From positions 3,960 to 67,959 of IMG/VR virus record IMGVR_UViG_3300035670_000174: a stretch of 64,000 nucleotides of DNA. One strand, given 5' to 3'. Positions 4,070 through 12,485 of the stretch are shown in pieces. The notes under the pieces were generated by a model. It did no database searches and was not told where the DNA came from. It worked only from the letters and a program-made list of their open reading frames with translations. The position numbers and the translations under genes are program-made. The stretch is from a virus. Numbering within the stretch: the stretch's first letter is position 1; every line of letters starts with the position of its first letter.

Positions 4070-4719
4070 AAAACTTTATACATCATGATATACCCAAACT
4101 TGAACGTATCACCAACTCTGATGGTTCGAGACTATACGCAACCCCATCTGGTAAGTCCTATCCATCCGTCACAACGATTACAGGACAACTTAAAAAGAAA
4201 GCCATCATGGAATGGCGAGCTAGAGTCGGCGCAGAAGAGGCTAATAGAGTCTCTTCCAGAGCATCAAGTAGAGGTACAAGAATCCACTCCTTGTGTGAAG
4301 AATATTTGCTTGGAAACGATGCTAACCCAGATATATTTGATGCGGAGATGTTCCACTCAATTCGTGGACAATTAGACTGTATAAATAATATACATGCTCT
4401 AGAAACCCCATTATTTTCAGATTTTTTAGAAGTTGCTGGTACAGTAGATTGTATAGCAGAATTCGAGGGTAAGTTATCGGTTATAGACTTCAAAACTTCT
4501 AGTCGTCCAAAGTCTAGGGATGATATTCATGATTATTTTATGCAGACCGCTGCATACGCTGTAGCATTCGAGGAATTGACTAAAATCCCTGTTTCGAGAC
4601 TAGTTGTTATAATGGCTGTAGAGAACGATTCTCCATTAATTTTTAAAGAAAAACGAGACACATGGATAGACTCTTTTAGGGATTTGCGTCAGGATTACAA
4701 ACGCCTAAATAATGTCTAG
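4066..4719 (+). CDS. PD-(D/E)XK exonuclease
   Basis: YPSVTT, RGTRIH, AGTVDCIA...VIDFKTS, YFMQTAAYA; common T4-like phage nuclease. Confidence 0.88.
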   Translation: MKNFIHHDIPKLERITNSDGSRLYATPSGKSYPSVTTITGQLKKKAIMEWRARVGAEEANRVSSRASSRGTRIHSLCEEYLLGNDANPDIFDAEMFHSIRGQLDCINNIHALETPLFSDFLEVAGTVDCIAEFEGKLSVIDFKTSSRPKSRDDIHDYFMQTAAYAVAFEELTKIPVSRLVVIMAVENDSPLIFKEKRDTWIDSFRDLRQDYKRLNNV

Positions 4720-6216: not shown

Positions 6217-6768
6217 ATGAGAATTTTGATATCACAGAGGGAGGTCATTGTGCCTCCCTCATTTTTTACCTTTGATGCTTTGGAACGTAGTTGGTACACT
6301 TTGTTTAGTGAACACCAACTAATCCCAATCCCAAACATTTGCAAAATAGATCCAACTATTAATTATGACTGTTTAGTTCTAACAGGTGGTCCAGATAGTG
6401 TTGAAAGACACATCACTGAAAATCTCCATTTTAAATATGCACTAAATCAAAACAAACCTATCATTGGGATTTGTCATGGTGCATTTGCAGTTAATGATTT
6501 AACTGGTGGTAAAAATGGTAAAGTAGAAGGACATTGGCAAAACGATCATGCAATTTACATGGAAAACCAAGAATTTCTTGTGAATAGTTATCATGAACAG
6601 TCTATTGCAAGTATTGGTCCAGAAATGGTTGTCGTTGCAACCGATGAAGAGTATAATATAGAAGCATTTAAACATAAGTCTAAACCAATTTTTGGGATTG
6701 TGTGGCATCCAGAAAGAATGGAAGTTCCAATTTTACCGATGGAGGTTAGACAACTACTGGGGATGTGA
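6217..6768 (+). CDS. Class I glutamine amidotransferase / peptidase C26 (PuuD-like)
   Basis: LTGGPD, GICHG nucleophile, NSYHEQ, WHPE. Confidence 0.88.
   Translation: MRILISQREVIVPPSFFTFDALERSWYTLFSEHQLIPIPNICKIDPTINYDCLVLTGGPDSVERHITENLHFKYALNQNKPIIGICHGAFAVNDLTGGKNGKVEGHWQNDHAIYMENQEFLVNSYHEQSIASIGPEMVVVATDEEYNIEAFKHKSKPIFGIVWHPERMEVPILPMEVRQLLGM
6237..6267 (+). terminator. Intrinsic terminator-like hairpin inside the GATase 5' coding region
   Basis: GAGGGAGG-TCATTGTG-CCTCCCTC followed by ATTTTTT. Confidence 0.6.
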
Positions 6769-8198
6769 TGGAATATATTATTTGGTGTTTGATTGGTACA
6801 TTATATGGAACACTAATCGGTGTTCTGCCAATGGCAGGTGCAACAACAGGACTATTGACAGTCTTTGCCCTCGCTCCATATTTTTTAGCAGATCCTTATC
6901 TTGGTATTGTCTTTATGACAAGTCTTGTAGCTGCATCTAGTACAGGTGATAGTTACACGAGCATTCTCACAGGTATTCCAGGTGGAGGACAAACAGCTGC
7001 ATCTATTATCGATGGTCACCCAATGGCATTACGAGGTGAAGCAGGAAGAGCGATTGGTATTTCTCTACTTGACAGCACAATCAATGGTGTTGTTTGGGGT
7101 ATAATTGCATTTGCCTTTCTTCCATTTTATAGTAAAATAATTTTATACTTTGGCGTTCCTGAGTTTGCTGCATTATTCTTGTTAAGTTTCTGTTGTGTTG
7201 GTATGTTAACGAGTAAGAATTTCTTTTATGGATTCCTTAGTGTAATTGTTGGATTGTATCTTGGATTGATTGGACTAGATCCAGGAACATCGTCTCCAAG
7301 ACTAACATTTGGTTGGGATTATCTTGATTCTGGAATTCAGATTCTTCCAATGATTGCTGGATTATTTGCCATTCCTGAATTGGTTGAAGGATGGAAACGT
7401 AGGCACTACGCTGTAGTAAAAATAGAAAATTACTACACACAACTATTCCAGGGATTTAAAGACTGTCTTGTTTATTGGCGTGATGTTGTTCGTGGTGGAT
7501 TCATAGGATTCTTCACTGGCATTCTTCCAGGTGCTGGTGGAACTATCGGTGATATGATGTCATATTCTGTCACTGTTGCTAAAAACCCTAAAGAACAATT
7601 TGGAAATGGTAACCCAAGAGGACTAGCTGGATGTGAAGGTGCAAACAATGCACAGAAAACATCTTCGCTTTTACCAACAATATTATTTGGTGTTCCAGCT
7701 GCACCATTTGCAGCAGTGATGATGGCGATATGTGTTTATTTCGGTATGTATATGGGTAGTCCAGAATTAGCAACTGACACAAAGTTTATTTGGTCTATTG
7801 GTGCTAGTTTTATTGCTGCGACTATCATTACATTTATTCTGGGAATTTTTATCACTAAATATGTAGTGAAGATACTTGAGATTCCATATTGGATCTATGC
7901 AACAGGTATCCTCTGTATAGTTGTTTGGAGTTGCTTTCAATATACTGGAACTCTTAACGATTTATACATTTTAATTATGTGTAGTGTTGTCGGACTAGGT
8001 GCCAAATACTTACACTTAAGTAGACCTGCGATTTTGTTATCTTTCATTGTCGCAGAGAAATTTGAGAATTATGCCCAACAAGCATATACGTTGTATAGTA
8101 TTGGTGATCTAATCCAACGACCACTAACAGTTGGGCTATTCTCATTGTGTTTGTTTATACTTTATTGGACAATACTAAGGAGAAAGCCAAATGTATAA
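6765..8198 (+). CDS. tctA: Tripartite tricarboxylate transporter permease TctA
   Basis: Polytopic; GVLPMAGA, SILTGIPG....AASIIDGHPMA..G.AGRAIG, GILPGAG, EGANNA, GVP. Confidence 0.9.
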   Translation: MMEYIIWCLIGTLYGTLIGVLPMAGATTGLLTVFALAPYFLADPYLGIVFMTSLVAASSTGDSYTSILTGIPGGGQTAASIIDGHPMALRGEAGRAIGISLLDSTINGVVWGIIAFAFLPFYSKIILYFGVPEFAALFLLSFCCVGMLTSKNFFYGFLSVIVGLYLGLIGLDPGTSSPRLTFGWDYLDSGIQILPMIAGLFAIPELVEGWKRRHYAVVKIENYYTQLFQGFKDCLVYWRDVVRGGFIGFFTGILPGAGGTIGDMMSYSVTVAKNPKEQFGNGNPRGLAGCEGANNAQKTSSLLPTILFGVPAAPFAAVMMAICVYFGMYMGSPELATDTKFIWSIGASFIAATIITFILGIFITKYVVKILEIPYWIYATGILCIVVWSCFQYTGTLNDLYILIMCSVVGLGAKYLHLSRPAILLSFIVAEKFENYAQQAYTLYSIGDLIQRPLTVGLFSLCLFILYWTILRRKPNV

Positions 8199-9240
8199 GT
8201 ACTTAATTGCAGCAGCACTCGCTGTTGTATCACTTACTGCTCGTGCAGAATATACTATGATTGTTCCAGATTCTCCTGGATCTGGTGGTGCAGTATGGGC
8301 ATCAGTCATCGCTAAACATCTTAGCAAATACACAGACGAACCAATCGTGTTGCAACATGTTCCAGGTGCACGCAATATTCCTGGAATGAATGAGTGGCAT
8401 AAAAAGTTTCGTCATGATGATAAAACCATGGTAATTAGTCTTGGTTCACATGCAGTAAATTTTTTGCTCGAGCCAGTTGACTACAATTTTAGTGATTACT
8501 CTGTTATTGGTATGATGAATCTTGATTTGATAGTTGGTCATAATAAAAATCATGATCCAAAAACACAGAAGTCTAAGATGGCAGGTGGTAATGCTCTAAA
8601 CGATGCACTTGCTGTTGGTATTATGATTTGTGGTCCACAACCAAATACTGATGCATATCTTGCTTGCTGGAAAGAGCGCATGACATGGGTTAATGGTGTT
8701 GCTGGAAATCAGATTCGACCAATGTATCTTCGTGGTGAAATTAACGTGACACGTGATCCACCAACTTCTTGGATTCGTTTCTATGAGAAAGAACCAAATA
8801 CAGTTGTTTGGTTTACGCATGGGTTGAAAGATCTAAAAACTGGTAAACAAATTGAAAACCCAAATTTCAAAGGTAAATTATTTGAAGATGTTTATAAGAA
8901 AACTTGGGGAGTATCACCATCTGGTGATTTGTTTGAAGCATATCATATGGCACGAACATTTAATAATGTTCTTCAAAAAGTTATTTGGGTTAACAAAGGT
9001 AATCCAAATGCAGAGAAACTTCGTGCTGCTATGAAAAAGATGTTGGCTGATCCAGAGGCAGTTAAAGCGATTGAAGAAGACTCTGGAAAGTATGAATGGG
9101 TTGTTGGTGAACATGCTGATAAGATTCGCCAAGATCTATTCAAGATGATTACAGAAAAGAGATTGCAGACTCTCGTTCAGTGGTATCAAGGTGCTTACGG
9201 AACAAAGAGTGTATACAAACCTGAATTAGTCACAAAGTGA
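8191..9240 (+). CDS. TctC/Bug-like periplasmic substrate-binding protein
   Basis: Signal peptide, IVPDSPGSGG..WA..IA..L....DEPIVLQHVPGA N-terminal Bug signature; follows tctA. Confidence 0.75.
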   Translation: MYKYLIAAALAVVSLTARAEYTMIVPDSPGSGGAVWASVIAKHLSKYTDEPIVLQHVPGARNIPGMNEWHKKFRHDDKTMVISLGSHAVNFLLEPVDYNFSDYSVIGMMNLDLIVGHNKNHDPKTQKSKMAGGNALNDALAVGIMICGPQPNTDAYLACWKERMTWVNGVAGNQIRPMYLRGEINVTRDPPTSWIRFYEKEPNTVVWFTHGLKDLKTGKQIENPNFKGKLFEDVYKKTWGVSPSGDLFEAYHMARTFNNVLQKVIWVNKGNPNAEKLRAAMKKMLADPEAVKAIEEDSGKYEWVVGEHADKIRQDLFKMITEKRLQTLVQWYQGAYGTKSVYKPELVTK

Positions 9241-9821
9241 TAAAACATTTAGGTAGATTTGAAGGTGATTGGCAAGATGCTATGGCTTCGGTCGTAGCAT
9301 CTGCTATTCCAGCTACATGGGAAACAGTTCGATACTGGAGAGTAAAAACTTCAGTTGGTCAAATATTAGATTTACCATCACCAGATGGCAAGAAAGAAGA
9401 AGATCATATTGCTGATGCAGGAGGTGATAAAAATTTAGTATTGACTAATATGGAACATGATATTCATCCAGTGTTTCAGGAAATGATTGATGAGATTGGA
9501 CTTGAAAACTCTTATAATAGAATCCATGTGCAATGGACTGGTCAGGTTTTTAATTGGCATAAAGATAAACTAGCAAGATACAATCGTGATGACCCAAGTA
9601 AAGTTTTGCGTGTTGTGGTTATGTTAACTGATTATATTCCTGGACATTTTTATCAGTATAACGATCAAATGTATACAGGATGGAAAGCTGGAGATGTTCA
9701 CACATTTGATTGGCAGACAGATTACCACTGCACTGCCAATGCAAGTTTAATGCCAAGAGTTAGTTTAGTGACTACTGGTGTTATTAGTGATAAGACTAAA
9801 CAGTTTTTATATGATAAATAG
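9237..9821 (+). CDS. Cupin-fold 2OG-Fe(II) oxygenase-like protein (AspH-like)
   Basis: WHKD (HxD) ... WKAGD...FD....HCTAN....RVSL pattern. Confidence 0.65.
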   Translation: MIKHLGRFEGDWQDAMASVVASAIPATWETVRYWRVKTSVGQILDLPSPDGKKEEDHIADAGGDKNLVLTNMEHDIHPVFQEMIDEIGLENSYNRIHVQWTGQVFNWHKDKLARYNRDDPSKVLRVVVMLTDYIPGHFYQYNDQMYTGWKAGDVHTFDWQTDYHCTANASLMPRVSLVTTGVISDKTKQFLYDK

Positions 9822-9825
9822 ATTT

Positions 9826-9889
9826 ATTGCTGTATGAAGCAATGAGAAAAGTGTTCTGGACGAGGGTTCGATTCCCTCCACCTCCACCA
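9826..9889 (+). ncRNA. ssrA: tmRNA acceptor piece of a circularly permuted (two-piece) ssrA
   Basis: T-arm GAGGG-TTCGATT-CCCTC (9862-9878), acceptor 3' strand CACCTCC-A-CCA (9879-9889); 5' end approximate. Confidence 0.9.
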
Positions 9890-9900
9890 AAAGGAATTTT

Positions 9901-10026
9901 ATGAGTAATTTATTGCTTGGATTATTAATTATAGGTTTGCATGGTTATTGGATTTACAAACTTGTGACATATGATTGGAGTCAGTATGATGAAGATCAGA
10001 AGCAATTAGATGAAGATTTCTTTTGA
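9901..10026 (+). CDS. 41-aa single-TM peptide encoded within the tmRNA intervening segment
   Basis: AAGGA RBS, ATG 9901, MSNLLLGLLIIGLHGYWIYKLVTYDWSQYDEDQKQLDEDFF, TGA 10024-10026. Confidence 0.65.
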   Translation: MSNLLLGLLIIGLHGYWIYKLVTYDWSQYDEDQKQLDEDFF

Positions 10027-10027
10027 T

Positions 10028-10201
10028 GGGGGTGACTAGGTTTCGACAGGGCAAGTAGTAACAGAGTGGACAGCACGGTAGGCGATCTCCGTAAAAGAAG
10101 CAAAACTATAAATGCAAATGACGCATTTTTCGGAGAAGTTCGCTTAGCAGCGTAACCTCCGTGGGGTTTCGGTGACTGTCCTTATTACCCAATCAGTCAC
10201 C
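10028..10201 (+). ncRNA. ssrA: tmRNA coding piece; tag (A)ANDAFFGEVRLAA
   Basis: GGGGGTG...GGTTTCGAC 5' end pairs with 9879-9885, including the G3.U70 pair. Tag ORF 10114-10155. 3' end approximate, at hairpin 10171-10201 followed by a T-rich run. Confidence 0.9.
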
Positions 10202-10310
10202 ACTATTTTTTATTTTTGGTAAAATTAGATGGTTTACCTTTTTTGGCACTAGACATTTTGTCTATGGTTTCCTCGTAACAGAATAACCTACCACTAATTC
10301 GGAGATAACA

Positions 10311-11415: not shown

Positions 11416-11931
11416 ATGCAAAAACGATTTTATATCGTCATTTCGTTATTTCTAATTACATTATTAATCTTTATAATTGCGTTAGTGCCAAAAACAAAAA
11501 TTATAGAGATAAACTATTCTCAATTAACCAAAGAAGGTAAGGCACAAGTAGACTGCTTAGCAGAAAACATTTACCACGAAGCAGCATATGAACCTATTAA
11601 TGGTAGAATTGCTGTTGCGCTCGTTACAATGAATCGCGTAAACGATCCAAGATATCCAAATAATATTTGTTCTGTAGTGAAACAAAGGATAAAATATACA
11701 TGTCAGTTCTCTTGGTATTGTGAGCGAAACAAACATATAAGAAATTATAATGCATATCTAGAAGCGCAAAGAATTGCGTTACATGTATATGCGAATTACG
11801 AATCACTAAAGGATTTAACTGGTGGTGCGTTGTTTTATCATGCAGATTATGTCCAACCTAATTGGCGCAATCTGCAAAAAACTGCAGTTATCGGAAGACA
11901 TATTTTTTATAAAGAAAGAAATCCATTATGA
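11416..11931 (+). CDS. SleB/Hydrolase_2 cell-wall hydrolase with N-terminal membrane anchor
   Basis: CLAENIYHEA..EP..G..AVA.V.MNRV, CQFSW, GALFYHADYV.P.W, IGRHIFY. Confidence 0.9.
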   Translation: MQKRFYIVISLFLITLLIFIIALVPKTKIIEINYSQLTKEGKAQVDCLAENIYHEAAYEPINGRIAVALVTMNRVNDPRYPNNICSVVKQRIKYTCQFSWYCERNKHIRNYNAYLEAQRIALHVYANYESLKDLTGGALFYHADYVQPNWRNLQKTAVIGRHIFYKERNPL

Positions 11932-12485
11932 TGAATAAATTAAATCTTCAATTAAAAGAAGACACGTCTCAGCATTCGTTTTATCTTTTAATGGAAGATA
12001 TTTCGTTAGCATCTTGTAAGAATGTAGTTGAATGGATCTTCGAAGCAAATTTCTCTGAAGAACGACCAGATATGTTAAATCTTATCATTACTTCTCCAGG
12101 TGGTGATTTGAATGCTGCTTTTGCAGTTATAGACACTATGCGTGGCTCTGCTATTCCTGTTCGTACAATCGGACTAGGTCAAATTGCTTCTGCTGGTTTA
12201 ATGATTTTTATTGCAGGCAGTAAAGGTAAAAGAATCCTTACACCAAATACTTCTATCCTCAGTCATCAATATACTTGGGGTGCGTTTGGTAAAGAACATG
12301 AGTTATTCGCTACAGTGAAAGAATTTGATTTAACTACCAAGAAAATGATTGCTCATTATAAAAGATGCACTGGATTATCTGAAGCAAAAATTCGTGAAAT
12401 TCTTTTGCCACCACAAGATATGTGGTTGAGTCCACCAGAGGCTAAGAAATTAGGAATTTGCGATGATATTAAAGAATTATCTTAA
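11928..12485 (+). CDS. clpP: ClpP-family serine protease subunit
   Basis: ITSPGGD, GQIASAG (Ser), SHQ (His), D.WLS..EA..LG..D. Confidence 0.88.
   Translation: MMNKLNLQLKEDTSQHSFYLLMEDISLASCKNVVEWIFEANFSEERPDMLNLIITSPGGDLNAAFAVIDTMRGSAIPVRTIGLGQIASAGLMIFIAGSKGKRILTPNTSILSHQYTWGAFGKEHELFATVKEFDLTTKKMIAHYKRCTGLSEAKIREILLPPQDMWLSPPEAKKLGICDDIKELS

What the first reader, a model, noticed from the sequence alone, without database searches (positions are those of the whole stretch)
9888..10027. tmRNA intervening segment is itself a mini-gene whose RBS pairs with its own stop codon
Seen: the 138-nt spacer between CCA (9889) and G1 (10028) is almost exactly filled by an RBS (AAGGA) and a 41-codon ORF with a hydrophobic N-terminal helix and an acidic tail. 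Its ends form a 13-bp stem: CAAAAGGAATTTT (9888-9900) with AAGATTTCTTTTG (10013-10025), including two G.U pairs. This stem continues from the acceptor stem and buries both the SD and the TGA. Known: the spacer of permuted tmRNAs is normally discarded after RNase P and 3' processing. Inference: maturation releases a closed-end (possibly circularisable) mRNA, or spacer translation competes with tmRNA folding. Either would couple a small membrane peptide to tmRNA biogenesis. The spacer could also be a tolerated cargo slot for variable small genes.
Basis: partly seen in the sequence, partly recalled or inferred. Interest (0 to 1): 0.9.

Follow-up and report, generated by a model that had tools for sequence, protein, structure and literature searches.

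The report
Small-peptide gene inside phage tmRNA spacer
The stretch cut out when this T4-like phage's two-piece ribosome-rescue RNA (tmRNA) matures carries a real, conserved gene for a 41-residue membrane-type peptide, and related phages use the same stem-closed stretch as a slot for many different small genes.

Summary
A permuted tmRNA lies at 9822-10212. Its 138-nt spacer (9890-10027) holds a ribosome-binding site, a 41-codon ORF and a 13-bp closing helix.

The ORF is a real gene. Its peptide family (invariant core GLHGYW.YKLVTYDW) has a median dN/dS of 0.17. In syntenic phages the gene lies either inside the spacer or directly upstream of the tmRNA.

The closing helix and the TGAT before G1 were not made for this gene. 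They occur in nearly all of 98 distinct related spacers, with abundant covariation, whether or not an ORF is present.

Among 49 non-redundant spacers of 85-400 nt, 22 are filled by a sense-strand ORF. The reverse strand gives 1, and shuffles give a mean of 1.5. The cargo varies, from 23-aa hydrophobic peptides to an 86-aa CxxCxxCC-domain protein. Cassettes have been exchanged independently of the tmRNA body.

Its ideas of a circular or closed-end mRNA and of competition with folding remain untested, because no expression data could be obtained.

Four full-text searches found no paper describing this. The scan has reported the same phenomenon on other genomes. New here are this peptide family and its two positions.

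The parts
9822..9889 (+). Acceptor piece of the permuted tmRNA. T-stem/loop 9862-9878, 3' acceptor strand 9879-9885, discriminator A9886, CCA 9887-9889.
   Evidence: ARAGORN; Rfam RF04321 and RF01850 alignments; sequence. The 5' limit is approximate: the upstream ORF stops at 9821.
9890..10027 (+). Intervening segment (spacer) of 138 nt, absent from mature tmRNA.
   Evidence: Lies between the CCA and G1. In the Rfam alignment it is an insertion of about 116 nt relative to the family consensus.
9888..9900 (+). 5' strand of the closing helix. Includes C75 and A76 of the CCA and the Shine-Dalgarno AAGGA (9891-9895).
   Evidence: Folds. Duplex energy -9.9 kcal/mol. 140 of 140 cells paired in 7 ORF-bearing relatives, with 2 compensatory pairs in this helix. 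Lineage-wide covariation over 98 spacers.
9901..10026 (+). 41-codon gene for the small peptide: N-terminal hydrophobic helix, invariant core GLHGYW.YKLVTYDW, acidic C-terminal helix. Stop codon TGA at 10024-10026.
   Evidence: ORF list; 7 homologues at 73-95% identity; 25 viral loci; median dN/dS 0.17; AF2 model.
10013..10025 (+). 3' strand of the closing helix. It also encodes the last four residues and the first two bases of the stop codon.
10024..10027 (+). TGAT immediately before G1. This is a conserved leader element of the lineage and supplies the stop codon.
   Evidence: TGAT in 77 and TAAT in 15 of 98 distinct spacers, ORF-less ones included. 21 of 26 ORF-filled spacers stop here.
10028..10212 (+). 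Coding piece of the tmRNA. 5' acceptor strand 10028-10034 with G3.U (G10030.T9883); tag reading frame 10114-10155 (ANDAFFGEVRLAA, stop TAA).
   Evidence: ARAGORN; Rfam; acceptor-stem covariation CG/GC at two pairs.

Best explanation
This T4-like phage carries a working circularly permuted (two-piece) tmRNA gene. Its intervening segment doubles as an expression slot for a small protein gene.

In this phage tmRNA lineage the spacer is closed by a helix of about 12 bp that stacks on the acceptor stem. The spacer ends in TGAT one base before G1. These features belong to the precursor RNA and exist with or without cargo.

Cargo genes sit exactly inside this frame:
- The purine-rich 5' strand (NAAG...) has been sharpened into a ribosome-binding site.
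- The start codon lies 9-15 nt after the CCA.
- The TGA of TGAT usually serves as the stop codon.

Here the cargo is a 41-residue peptide of a small phage-specific family: a membrane-type helix, an invariant aromatic core and an acidic helix. In other phages of the group the same gene lies just upstream of the tmRNA, apparently in the same transcript.

Inferred steps:
- The peptide is translated from the tmRNA primary transcript, most probably while the RNA is still being made, before the 3' strand of the closing helix exists.
- Once the helix forms it hides the ribosome-binding site. RNase P and 3' trimming then release the two tmRNA pieces, and the excised spacer is mostly silent.
- The peptide most likely acts at the host inner membrane as an accessory (moron-like) product. 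Its target is unknown.
For: Shown:
- tmRNA calls. The G3.U pair and acceptor-stem covariation are intact.
- The peptide gene is under purifying selection. Over 22 distinct core sequences, pairwise differences at codon positions 1/2/3 are 1882/982/3360. Median dN/dS is 0.17 over the 90 unsaturated pairs of 231. The window and L004 copies differ at 4 of 138 bases, which I read by eye as three synonymous changes plus I->V.
- The family is small and phage-borne: 7 close hits and 19 representatives at E<=1e-3 in 1.84 billion proteins.
- Of 25 viral loci with the gene, 21 have a permuted tmRNA within 850 nt. In 9 the gene is inside the spacer, in 8 it abuts the tmRNA upstream (5 nt or less), and in 4 it lies 105-802 nt upstream.
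- In syntenic backbones the gene lies on either side of the 65-nt acceptor piece (L023 vs L022, L028 vs L021).
- The closing helix is lineage-wide. Pairs 1-11 are formed in 81-98 of 98 distinct spacers, with up to six pair types per position. The median contiguous run is 10, against 2 for mismatched partners.
- The slot is used widely. 22 of 49 cluster representatives of 85-400 nt are ORF-filled, against 1 on the reverse strand; the shuffle mean is 1.48 and the maximum 8, with 0 of 500 reaching 22. In the sample drawn by the DNA motif alone, 19 of 84 distinct spacers are ORF-filled.
- An SD-like tetramer lies in the first 12 nt in 21 of 26 ORF-filled spacers, against 9 of 72 others.
- One cargo is a bona fide domain: PF03692 at 26.6 and 29.4 bits, cut-off 23, inside tmRNAs confirmed by Rfam.
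- Cassette exchange: the window and L004 spacers are 97% identical but their coding pieces only 71%. The L004 and L003 coding pieces are 99% identical but their spacers are unrelated.
- Transcription units. In L006 a TTGACA-17-TATACT promoter (11 of 12) sits just before the acceptor piece and a terminator just after the tmRNA. L008 has a 12 of 12 promoter at the same place. In L022 and L016 a promoter lies directly upstream of the upstream-placed ORF.

Inferred: translation from the precursor and its timing.
Against: - There is no expression evidence of any kind. The RNA runs found hold only relatives' conserved tmRNA parts.
- The helix (-9.9 kcal/mol) hides the ribosome-binding site, so translation from folded RNA should be poor.
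- 5 of 26 ORF-filled spacers lack an SD-like tetramer. Three of these are spacer copies of this very peptide (L006, L007, L008).
- In the window itself no convincing promoter precedes the tmRNA. The best match is 9 of 12, and the region has 7 sites against 5.3 expected.
- L002 and L003 show that the ORF is dispensable for the tmRNA.
26 of 143 motif sites gave no resolvable spacer.
- dN/dS rests on only 28 codons.
- The peptide matches no Pfam or PHROG family, so its function is a guess.
Confidence: 0.7

Rival explanations
1. The excised spacer is the messenger. After RNase P cuts at G1 and the 3' end is trimmed to CCA, the spacer is released as a small mRNA whose paired ends protect it from exonucleases, or allow ligation to a circle. 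The peptide is made mainly from this stable product.
For: The closing helix pairs the first and last bases of the spacer exactly. The ORF fills the spacer from end to end: starts lie at positions 9-15 and stops 1 or 12 nt before G1. A 5'-3' closure that governs translation of a small hydrophobic peptide is known from hok-type mRNAs (recalled, not from a call).
Against: In the closed form the ribosome-binding site is inside the helix, so the product would need an opening step. No joint or circular form could be looked for, because the runs found do not hold this spacer. No ligase or BHB-type motif was identified or sought.
Confidence: 0.2
2. Translation itself is the point. The ORF works as a cis-acting timer of tmRNA maturation. 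A ribosome on the spacer keeps the closing helix and the acceptor stem apart until it terminates one base before G1. The peptide product is incidental.
For: The geometry fits: the stop lies at TGAT one nt before G1 in 21 of 26 cases, and the SD lies in the 5' strand. The helix and acceptor stem stack.
Against: The amino-acid sequence is conserved, with dN/dS 0.17 and 17 invariant columns. The same peptide is kept when the gene lies outside the spacer. Other cargo includes a folded domain protein. Many working relatives have no ORF at all.
Confidence: 0.1
3. The cassettes are selfish or neutral passengers. Small genes land in the spacer because insertions there do not harm the tmRNA, and the conserved flanks allow homologous exchange between co-infecting phages. 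There is no functional link to tmRNA.
For: Cassettes are exchanged mosaically. The cargo is very heterogeneous. Spacer length ranges from 29 to 284 nt. ORF-less relatives are common, including cultured Stenotrophomonas and Xanthomonas phages.
Against: This peptide gene stays within or against the tmRNA gene in 17 of 25 loci, and does so in two different arrangements. That hints at selection for co-transcription, though inherited synteny could also explain it. Cargo genes are under purifying selection, so they are not junk.
Confidence: 0.3
4. The ORF is a chance open frame in a structured non-coding spacer.
For: The spacer is AT-rich and short. 23 of 5000 shuffles give an ORF as long. The spacer interior also folds well.
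Against: Third-position excess and dN/dS 0.17. The family is found in a second genomic position. ORF-filling is specific to the sense strand, 22 against 1. SD enrichment is 21 of 26 against 9 of 72.
Confidence: 0.03

Closest known systems
Circularly permuted (two-piece) tmRNA genes: Rfam RF04321 tmRNA_permuted and RF01850 beta_tmRNA; Caulobacter and other bacterial lineages; phage copies such as Methylophage Melnitz
   Same: The gene order is acceptor piece, intervening sequence, coding piece. The tRNA-like domain has G3.U, and the tag frame ends in LAA. Two-piece tmRNAs are known to be common in aquatic phages (PMC9004378, passages read).
   Different: The intervening sequence is described as absent from mature tmRNA (PMC11915505, passages read). 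That paper notes a tRNA-Ala gene in one intervening sequence and a repetitive element in another, and the term 'open reading' does not occur in its main text. Here the segment carries a selected protein gene within a conserved closing helix.
Group I introns with homing-endonuclease ORFs in the T-loop of tmRNA genes (the intron form described in PMC11915505)
   Same: A protein-coding ORF is nested in a part of the tmRNA gene that is removed from the mature RNA.
   Different: No intron family was detected. Removal is by tRNA-type end processing, not self-splicing. The cargo is small peptides and small proteins, not endonucleases. The site is the CCA-G1 junction, not the T-loop.
hok/Sok-type type I toxin mRNAs (recalled from the literature; not fetched here)
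   Same: A small hydrophobic peptide is encoded on an RNA whose 5' and 3' ends pair, and the ribosome-binding region is locked in the closed form.
   Different: No antisense RNA gene or upstream coupling reading frame was looked for or seen. The closure here belongs to a tmRNA precursor. Toxicity of the peptide is unknown.
Phage morons and small accessory genes in tRNA clusters of T4-like phages (recalled)
   Same: Small, exchangeable, often membrane-directed genes are tucked between stable-RNA genes and expressed from their transcripts.
   Different: Here the gene lies inside one RNA gene, between two halves that must pair with each other. It shares its ribosome-binding site and stop codon with conserved RNA structure.

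Membership tests
Permuted two-piece tmRNA (Rfam RF04321 / RF01850) | Covariance-model score above the curated gathering score | tested here: met
   RF04321 143.6 bits against 47; RF01850 105.7 bits against 84.
Permuted two-piece tmRNA (Rfam RF04321 / RF01850) | Permuted order: T-arm, 3' acceptor strand and CCA upstream of the 5' acceptor strand and the tag reading frame | tested here: met
   ARAGORN calls it 'tmRNA*' (permuted) with a tag. CCA at 9887-9889 and G1 at 10028.
Permuted two-piece tmRNA (Rfam RF04321 / RF01850) | G3.U70 wobble pair (alanine identity) and a 7-bp acceptor stem | tested here: met
   G10030.T9883. The U.G pair is present in 7 of 7 relatives, and two neighbouring pairs covary CG/GC.
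Permuted two-piece tmRNA (Rfam RF04321 / RF01850) | Tag frame starting at an alanine resume codon and ending in a hydrophobic degradation signal | tested here: met
   GCA at 10114; ANDAFFGEVRLAA, then TAA. The tag differs from ANDAQFALAA in the nearest relatives.
Permuted two-piece tmRNA (Rfam RF04321 / RF01850) | Processing into two base-paired RNAs, and activity in trans-translation with SmpB | not testable with these tools
   No usable RNA data. No smpB was sought.
HGYW small-peptide family (unnamed; defined here) | 36-60 aa, with an N-terminal hydrophobic helix followed by the invariant core GLHGYW.YKLVTYDW and an acidic tail | tested here: met
   17 invariant columns in 8 sequences; 22 distinct core sequences; profile search finds 17 small proteins.
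Leader-peptide / uORF attenuators | The peptide sequence is free to vary apart from regulatory codons, and the ORF acts only in cis | tested here: not met
   The peptide is conserved (dN/dS 0.17). It is retained when the gene lies outside the spacer.
Group I intron in tmRNA (intron form) | A group I intron fold interrupting the T-loop | tested here: not met
   No intron family is among the Rfam matches in the window. The T-loop at 9867-9873 is uninterrupted.
Type I toxin-antitoxin (hok-like) | A cis-encoded antisense RNA and a toxic membrane peptide | not tested
   No antisense promoter search or toxicity test was done. The resemblance is recalled, not computed.

The most novel reading that the evidence does not exclude
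The peptide and the tmRNA are coupled by design. The peptide gene is kept in the tmRNA primary transcript in two alternative positions, as a 5' leader or as the spacer.

In the spacer form, a ribosome loads on the nascent RNA before the closing helix can form. It then holds the helix and the acceptor stem apart until it terminates at the TGA one base before G1. Each precursor would therefore yield about one peptide before it snaps shut and is processed: a translate-once-then-mature switch that sets the ratio of peptide to tmRNA.

The membrane peptide would then work in the same pathway as the phage tmRNA, for instance by acting on the fate of tagged proteins at the membrane alongside the phage's own ClpP (11928-12485).
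Probability: 0.15. Interest if true: 0.9.

Novelty: new variant of a known kind. Interest (0 to 1): 0.72.

Why it matters
The intervening segment of permuted tmRNA genes is treated as discarded RNA, and gene callers and RNA annotators both skip it. In a large group of aquatic phages it is a standard, exchangeable expression slot, with a ready-made ribosome-binding site, a stop codon and a closing helix.

Three consequences follow:
- A class of small phage proteins, many of them membrane peptides, is systematically missing from annotations.
- A stable-RNA precursor also serves as a messenger.
- The link between RNA processing, folding and translation can be tested directly, with stem-breaking and compensatory mutants.

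The two positions of this peptide gene, leader and spacer, give a natural experiment on whether co-transcription with tmRNA matters.

Tried and rejected
As its message suggests, I built an alignment and used that instead.
The genomic context of the seven protein-database hits P0001-P0007 is therefore unknown.
- RNA evidence. The look-up of sequencing runs gave 7 runs with small shares of 0.04-0.10. Laying 4 of them (contigs only) covered 9820-9893 and 10020-10170 at 85% likeness or more and left 9916-10011 uncovered. One joint has 67 other letters in place of 126. These are relatives with other spacers. They say nothing about expression of this ORF, and I draw no habitat from them.
None of the 120 is followed by a tmRNA-like CCA...G1 arrangement. 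A 15-mer is expected to match by chance in 596 Gb, so this says nothing about hosts.
- The peptide has no Pfam or PHROG family at E<=0.1.
- The ESM Atlas gave best scores of 0.82-0.83, below the useful range.
- tblastn against 50,697 phage records gave only two E=0.6 matches, inside an acyltransferase gene. No cultured phage in that collection has this peptide.
- Cultured phages Marzo, JGB6 and Rb1 have the closing helix and TGAT but no ORF. Calle_1 has a standard tmRNA.
- The primary papers on two-piece tmRNA (PMC16621, PMC516066) are not held. What I say about RNase P and 3' processing is recalled.
- Literature: four full-text searches. I read passages only of PMC11915505, PMC9004378, PMC4131195 and PMC5746245. 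None mentions a protein ORF in a tmRNA intervening sequence. Supplementary tables were closed and might list such cases.
By eye I saw no acceptor or G1 remnant around the ORF in L018 or L022. This was not tested formally.
- I did not resolve the direction of the relocation (spacer to upstream, or the reverse).

Full report
WHAT IS THERE. The window is part of a 67,959-base virus record estimated at 42% complete. It encodes a baseplate wedge, tail sheath, large terminase and portal protein, so it is a myovirus of T4-like build. ARAGORN finds one gene, a permuted tmRNA at 9797-10246 with tag ANDAFFGEVRLAA. Rfam agrees: tmRNA_permuted scores 143.6 bits against a cut-off of 47, and beta_tmRNA scores 105.7 against 84.

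From the sequence, the acceptor piece ends in CCA at 9887-9889 and the coding piece starts with G1 at 10028. The 138 nt between them hold AAGGA (9891-9895), ATG (9901), 41 codons and TGA (10024-10026). The segment 9888-9900 pairs with 10013-10025 over 13 bp, with two G.U pairs. This helix appears in the minimum-energy and centroid folds of the spacer (z -3.59) and of the whole precursor (z -4.12), next to the T-arm and acceptor stem. An ORF this long arises in 23 of 5000 shuffles of the spacer. The one refinement is that only the T and G of the stop codon are paired.

IS THE ORF A GENE? I reached relatives first through the flanking genes. All three loci found have a permuted tmRNA at the same place.
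- L004 carries the same ORF. The spacers differ at 4 of 138 bases, which I read by eye as three synonymous third-position changes and one I->V.
- L002 and L003 have unrelated spacers of 78 and 68 nt and no ORF.

A protein search found 7 small proteins at 73-95% identity. A profile search of 1.84 billion representatives found 19 at E<=1e-3, of which 17 are 36-60 aa. An alignment then retrieved 25 viral loci.

Over a gap-free 28-codon core I found 22 distinct sequences. Pairwise differences at codon positions 1, 2 and 3 number 1882, 982 and 3360. Median dN/dS is 0.17 over the 90 pairs of 231 that were not saturated. AlphaFold2 gives two helices, 2-23 and 26-40, with pLDDT 88. No Pfam or PHROG family matches. 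I conclude that this is a real, selected small-protein gene of a narrow phage family.

TWO POSITIONS FOR THE SAME GENE. Of the 25 loci, 21 hold a permuted tmRNA near the gene. ARAGORN finds it in 15 of 25. Rfam finds it in 16 of the 20 loci I gave it, and the remaining five were called by ARAGORN. The arrangements are as follows:
- In 9 loci the gene lies inside the spacer, as it does here: L005 (the same contig as L004), L006, L007, L008, L023, L024, L025, L027, L028.
- In 8 loci it ends 0-5 nt before the acceptor piece: L016, L017, L018, L019, L021, L022, L026, L029.
- In 4 loci it lies 105-802 nt upstream: L009, L010, L014, L015.
- In 4 loci no tmRNA was seen. Two of these reach a contig end, and L020 breaks off 18 nt into an acceptor-like start.

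BLAST between loci shows that the flanks are homologous while the order differs. L023 reads acceptor, then ORF, then coding piece. L022 reads ORF, then acceptor, then a 61-nt spacer, then coding piece. The same holds for L028 against L021. L022's peptide shares the tail type of the spacer copies, so one relocation may suffice. I could not tell its direction.

Promoter scans fit co-transcription in both layouts. L006 has an 11 of 12 promoter ending 7 nt before the acceptor piece and a terminator after the tmRNA. L008 has a 12 of 12 promoter at the same place. L022 and L016 have 10 of 12 and 11 of 12 promoters directly before the upstream-placed ORF. These are consensus matches, not proof.

THE HELIX AND THE STOP CODON BELONG TO THE PRECURSOR. 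Across all loci then held there were 143 motif sites. I could define the spacer from CCA to G1 for 117 of them. The other 26 were chance matches, contig ends, interrupted genes or odd acceptor stems. This gave 98 distinct spacers of 29-284 nt.
- The last four bases are TGAT in 77 and TAAT in 15.
- The first four are AAAG, TAAG, TAAA or GAAG in 79.
- In the register of this window, pairs 1 to 11 are formed in 81-98 of 98, with up to six different pair types at a position.
- The median contiguous run is 10, against 2 when a 5' strand is paired with another spacer's 3' strand.
- On the seven distinct ORF-bearing copies, 140 of 140 cells pair, and two closing-helix pairs show compensatory change.
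- Cultured Stenotrophomonas and Xanthomonas phages show the same helix and TGAT without any ORF.

So the pairing of the RBS with the stop codon is the frame into which the gene fits, not an invention of this gene.

A SLOT WITH VARIED CARGO. I clustered the 98 spacers into 79 groups. Among the 49 representatives of 85-400 nt, 22 have a sense-strand ORF covering at least 80% of the spacer, against 1 on the reverse strand. In dinucleotide shuffles the mean is 1.48 and the maximum 8, and 0 of 500 reach 22. Among the 30 shorter representatives the figure is 3, against a shuffle mean of 1.07, with 42 of 500 reaching 3.

In the sample drawn by the DNA motif alone, which is unbiased with respect to this peptide, there are 97 loci and 84 distinct spacers, of which 53 are at least 85 nt. 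Nineteen of these are ORF-filled.

In the 26 ORF-filled distinct spacers:
- The start lies at position 9-15 and is ATG in 20.
- The stop is the TGA of TGAT in 21 and lies 12 nt before G1 in 5.
- An SD-like tetramer is in the first 12 nt in 21, against 9 of the 72 other spacers.
- 10 of the 25 distinct cargo peptides have a strongly hydrophobic 17-residue stretch.

Two 86-aa cargo proteins match Pfam PF03692 (CxxCxxCC) above its cut-off. ARAGORN independently calls the surrounding tmRNA in 18 of the 22 ORF-bearing or unresolved loci I gave it. Rfam confirms three of the remaining four, and the fourth is cut by a contig end.

Cassettes move independently of the tmRNA body. The window and L004 share the spacer at 97% identity but the coding piece at only 71%. 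L004 and L003 share the coding piece at 99% but have unrelated spacers.

HOW IT PROBABLY WORKS (INFERRED). The only evident transcript for a spacer gene is the tmRNA precursor. The closing duplex is modest (-9.9 kcal/mol; forbidding it costs 5.5 kcal/mol), but it covers the ribosome-binding site. I therefore think the most likely route is loading of a ribosome on the nascent RNA, before the 3' strand is made 120 nt later. The ribosome would then terminate at the TGA next to G1, the helix would close, and tRNA-type processing would follow. The processing enzymes are recalled, because the primary papers were not held. Translation of the excised, closed spacer and a purely regulatory role are rivals. 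Neither is excluded, and no RNA data for this spacer could be found. The peptide's function is unknown. Its build suggests a single-pass membrane peptide.

KNOWN OR NEW. The 2025 tmRNA database paper defines the intervening sequence as absent from mature tmRNA. It mentions a tRNA gene in one and a repeat in another, and the term 'open reading' does not occur in its main text (passages). The Melnitz paper reports that two-piece tmRNAs are common in aquatic phages and says nothing of spacer genes in the passages I read. Four full-text searches found no description, and supplements were closed. This scan has noted protein genes in phage tmRNA spacers repeatedly on other genomes, and I reached the same reading independently before looking.
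- this peptide family;
- its two positions, on either side of the acceptor piece, in syntenic phages;
- the count showing that the helix and TGAT are lineage-wide.

LIMITS.
- All inference is comparative.
- The survey covers one tmRNA lineage through one motif and was cut at 120 rows.
- Spacer boundaries come from my own rule: G1 is the reverse complement of the 7-nt acceptor strand with G at position 3.
- The dN/dS estimate rests on 28 codons.

Noticed in passing
window 10156-10290: Downstream of the tag stop, the window has an extra hairpin (about 10170-10203) and a T-run. Only then comes the 'GGTTTCCTCGTAACAGAATAACCTACC' hairpin that follows the tag directly in L002-L004. This looks like an insertion or duplication of about 100 nt at the 3' end of the coding piece. 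The tag (ANDAFFGEVRLAA) also differs from ANDAQFALAA in those relatives.
   Followed up: partly
window 11928-12485 (+): A phage-encoded ClpP-family protease (PF00574, 100.7 bits) lies 1.9 kb downstream of the tmRNA, whose tag ends in LAA. A cell-wall hydrolase (PF07486) lies at 11416-11931.
   Followed up: partly
window 6765-9240 (+): A TctA-family transporter subunit (PF01970, 334 bits), followed by a 349-aa ORF with no Pfam hit, lies just upstream of the tmRNA region. This is an unusual auxiliary gene for a phage. An earlier first-reader note calls it a TctA/TctC module.
   Followed up: partly
L139, tmRNA at 6265-6783: A 215-nt spacer holds two consecutive small hydrophobic-peptide ORFs (36 and 25 codons, the stop of one adjoining the start of the next) inside one closing helix.
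   Followed up: partly
L056, tmRNA at 4165-4594 (-): The spacer ORF has an SD but is out of frame with the TGAT. As read, it runs on into the coding piece of the tmRNA. It is either a stop-less design or an assembly frameshift.
   Followed up: no
L035 (2627), L062, L111: The acceptor-piece sequence breaks off inside the T-loop region and continues as unrelated DNA. Possible causes are insertions, attachment sites or truncated tmRNA copies. L035 also has a second, intact copy.
   Followed up: no
L033, L057, L132: Relatives with very short spacers (about 25 nt), in which the acceptor strand is followed by CC-T rather than a full encoded CCA.
   Followed up: no
L008 1903-1977; L038 5061-5137: ARAGORN calls tRNAs with anticodon CUA (labelled tRNA-Pyl), that is, possible amber-suppressor tRNAs, close to the tmRNA in two related phages.
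   Followed up: no
L026 1698-1788; L017 1698-1783: These two loci have the HGYW peptide gene abutting the tmRNA upstream, and in addition a different mini-ORF (25 and 23 codons) with a strong SD inside the spacer. One precursor would thus carry two small genes.
   Followed up: partly
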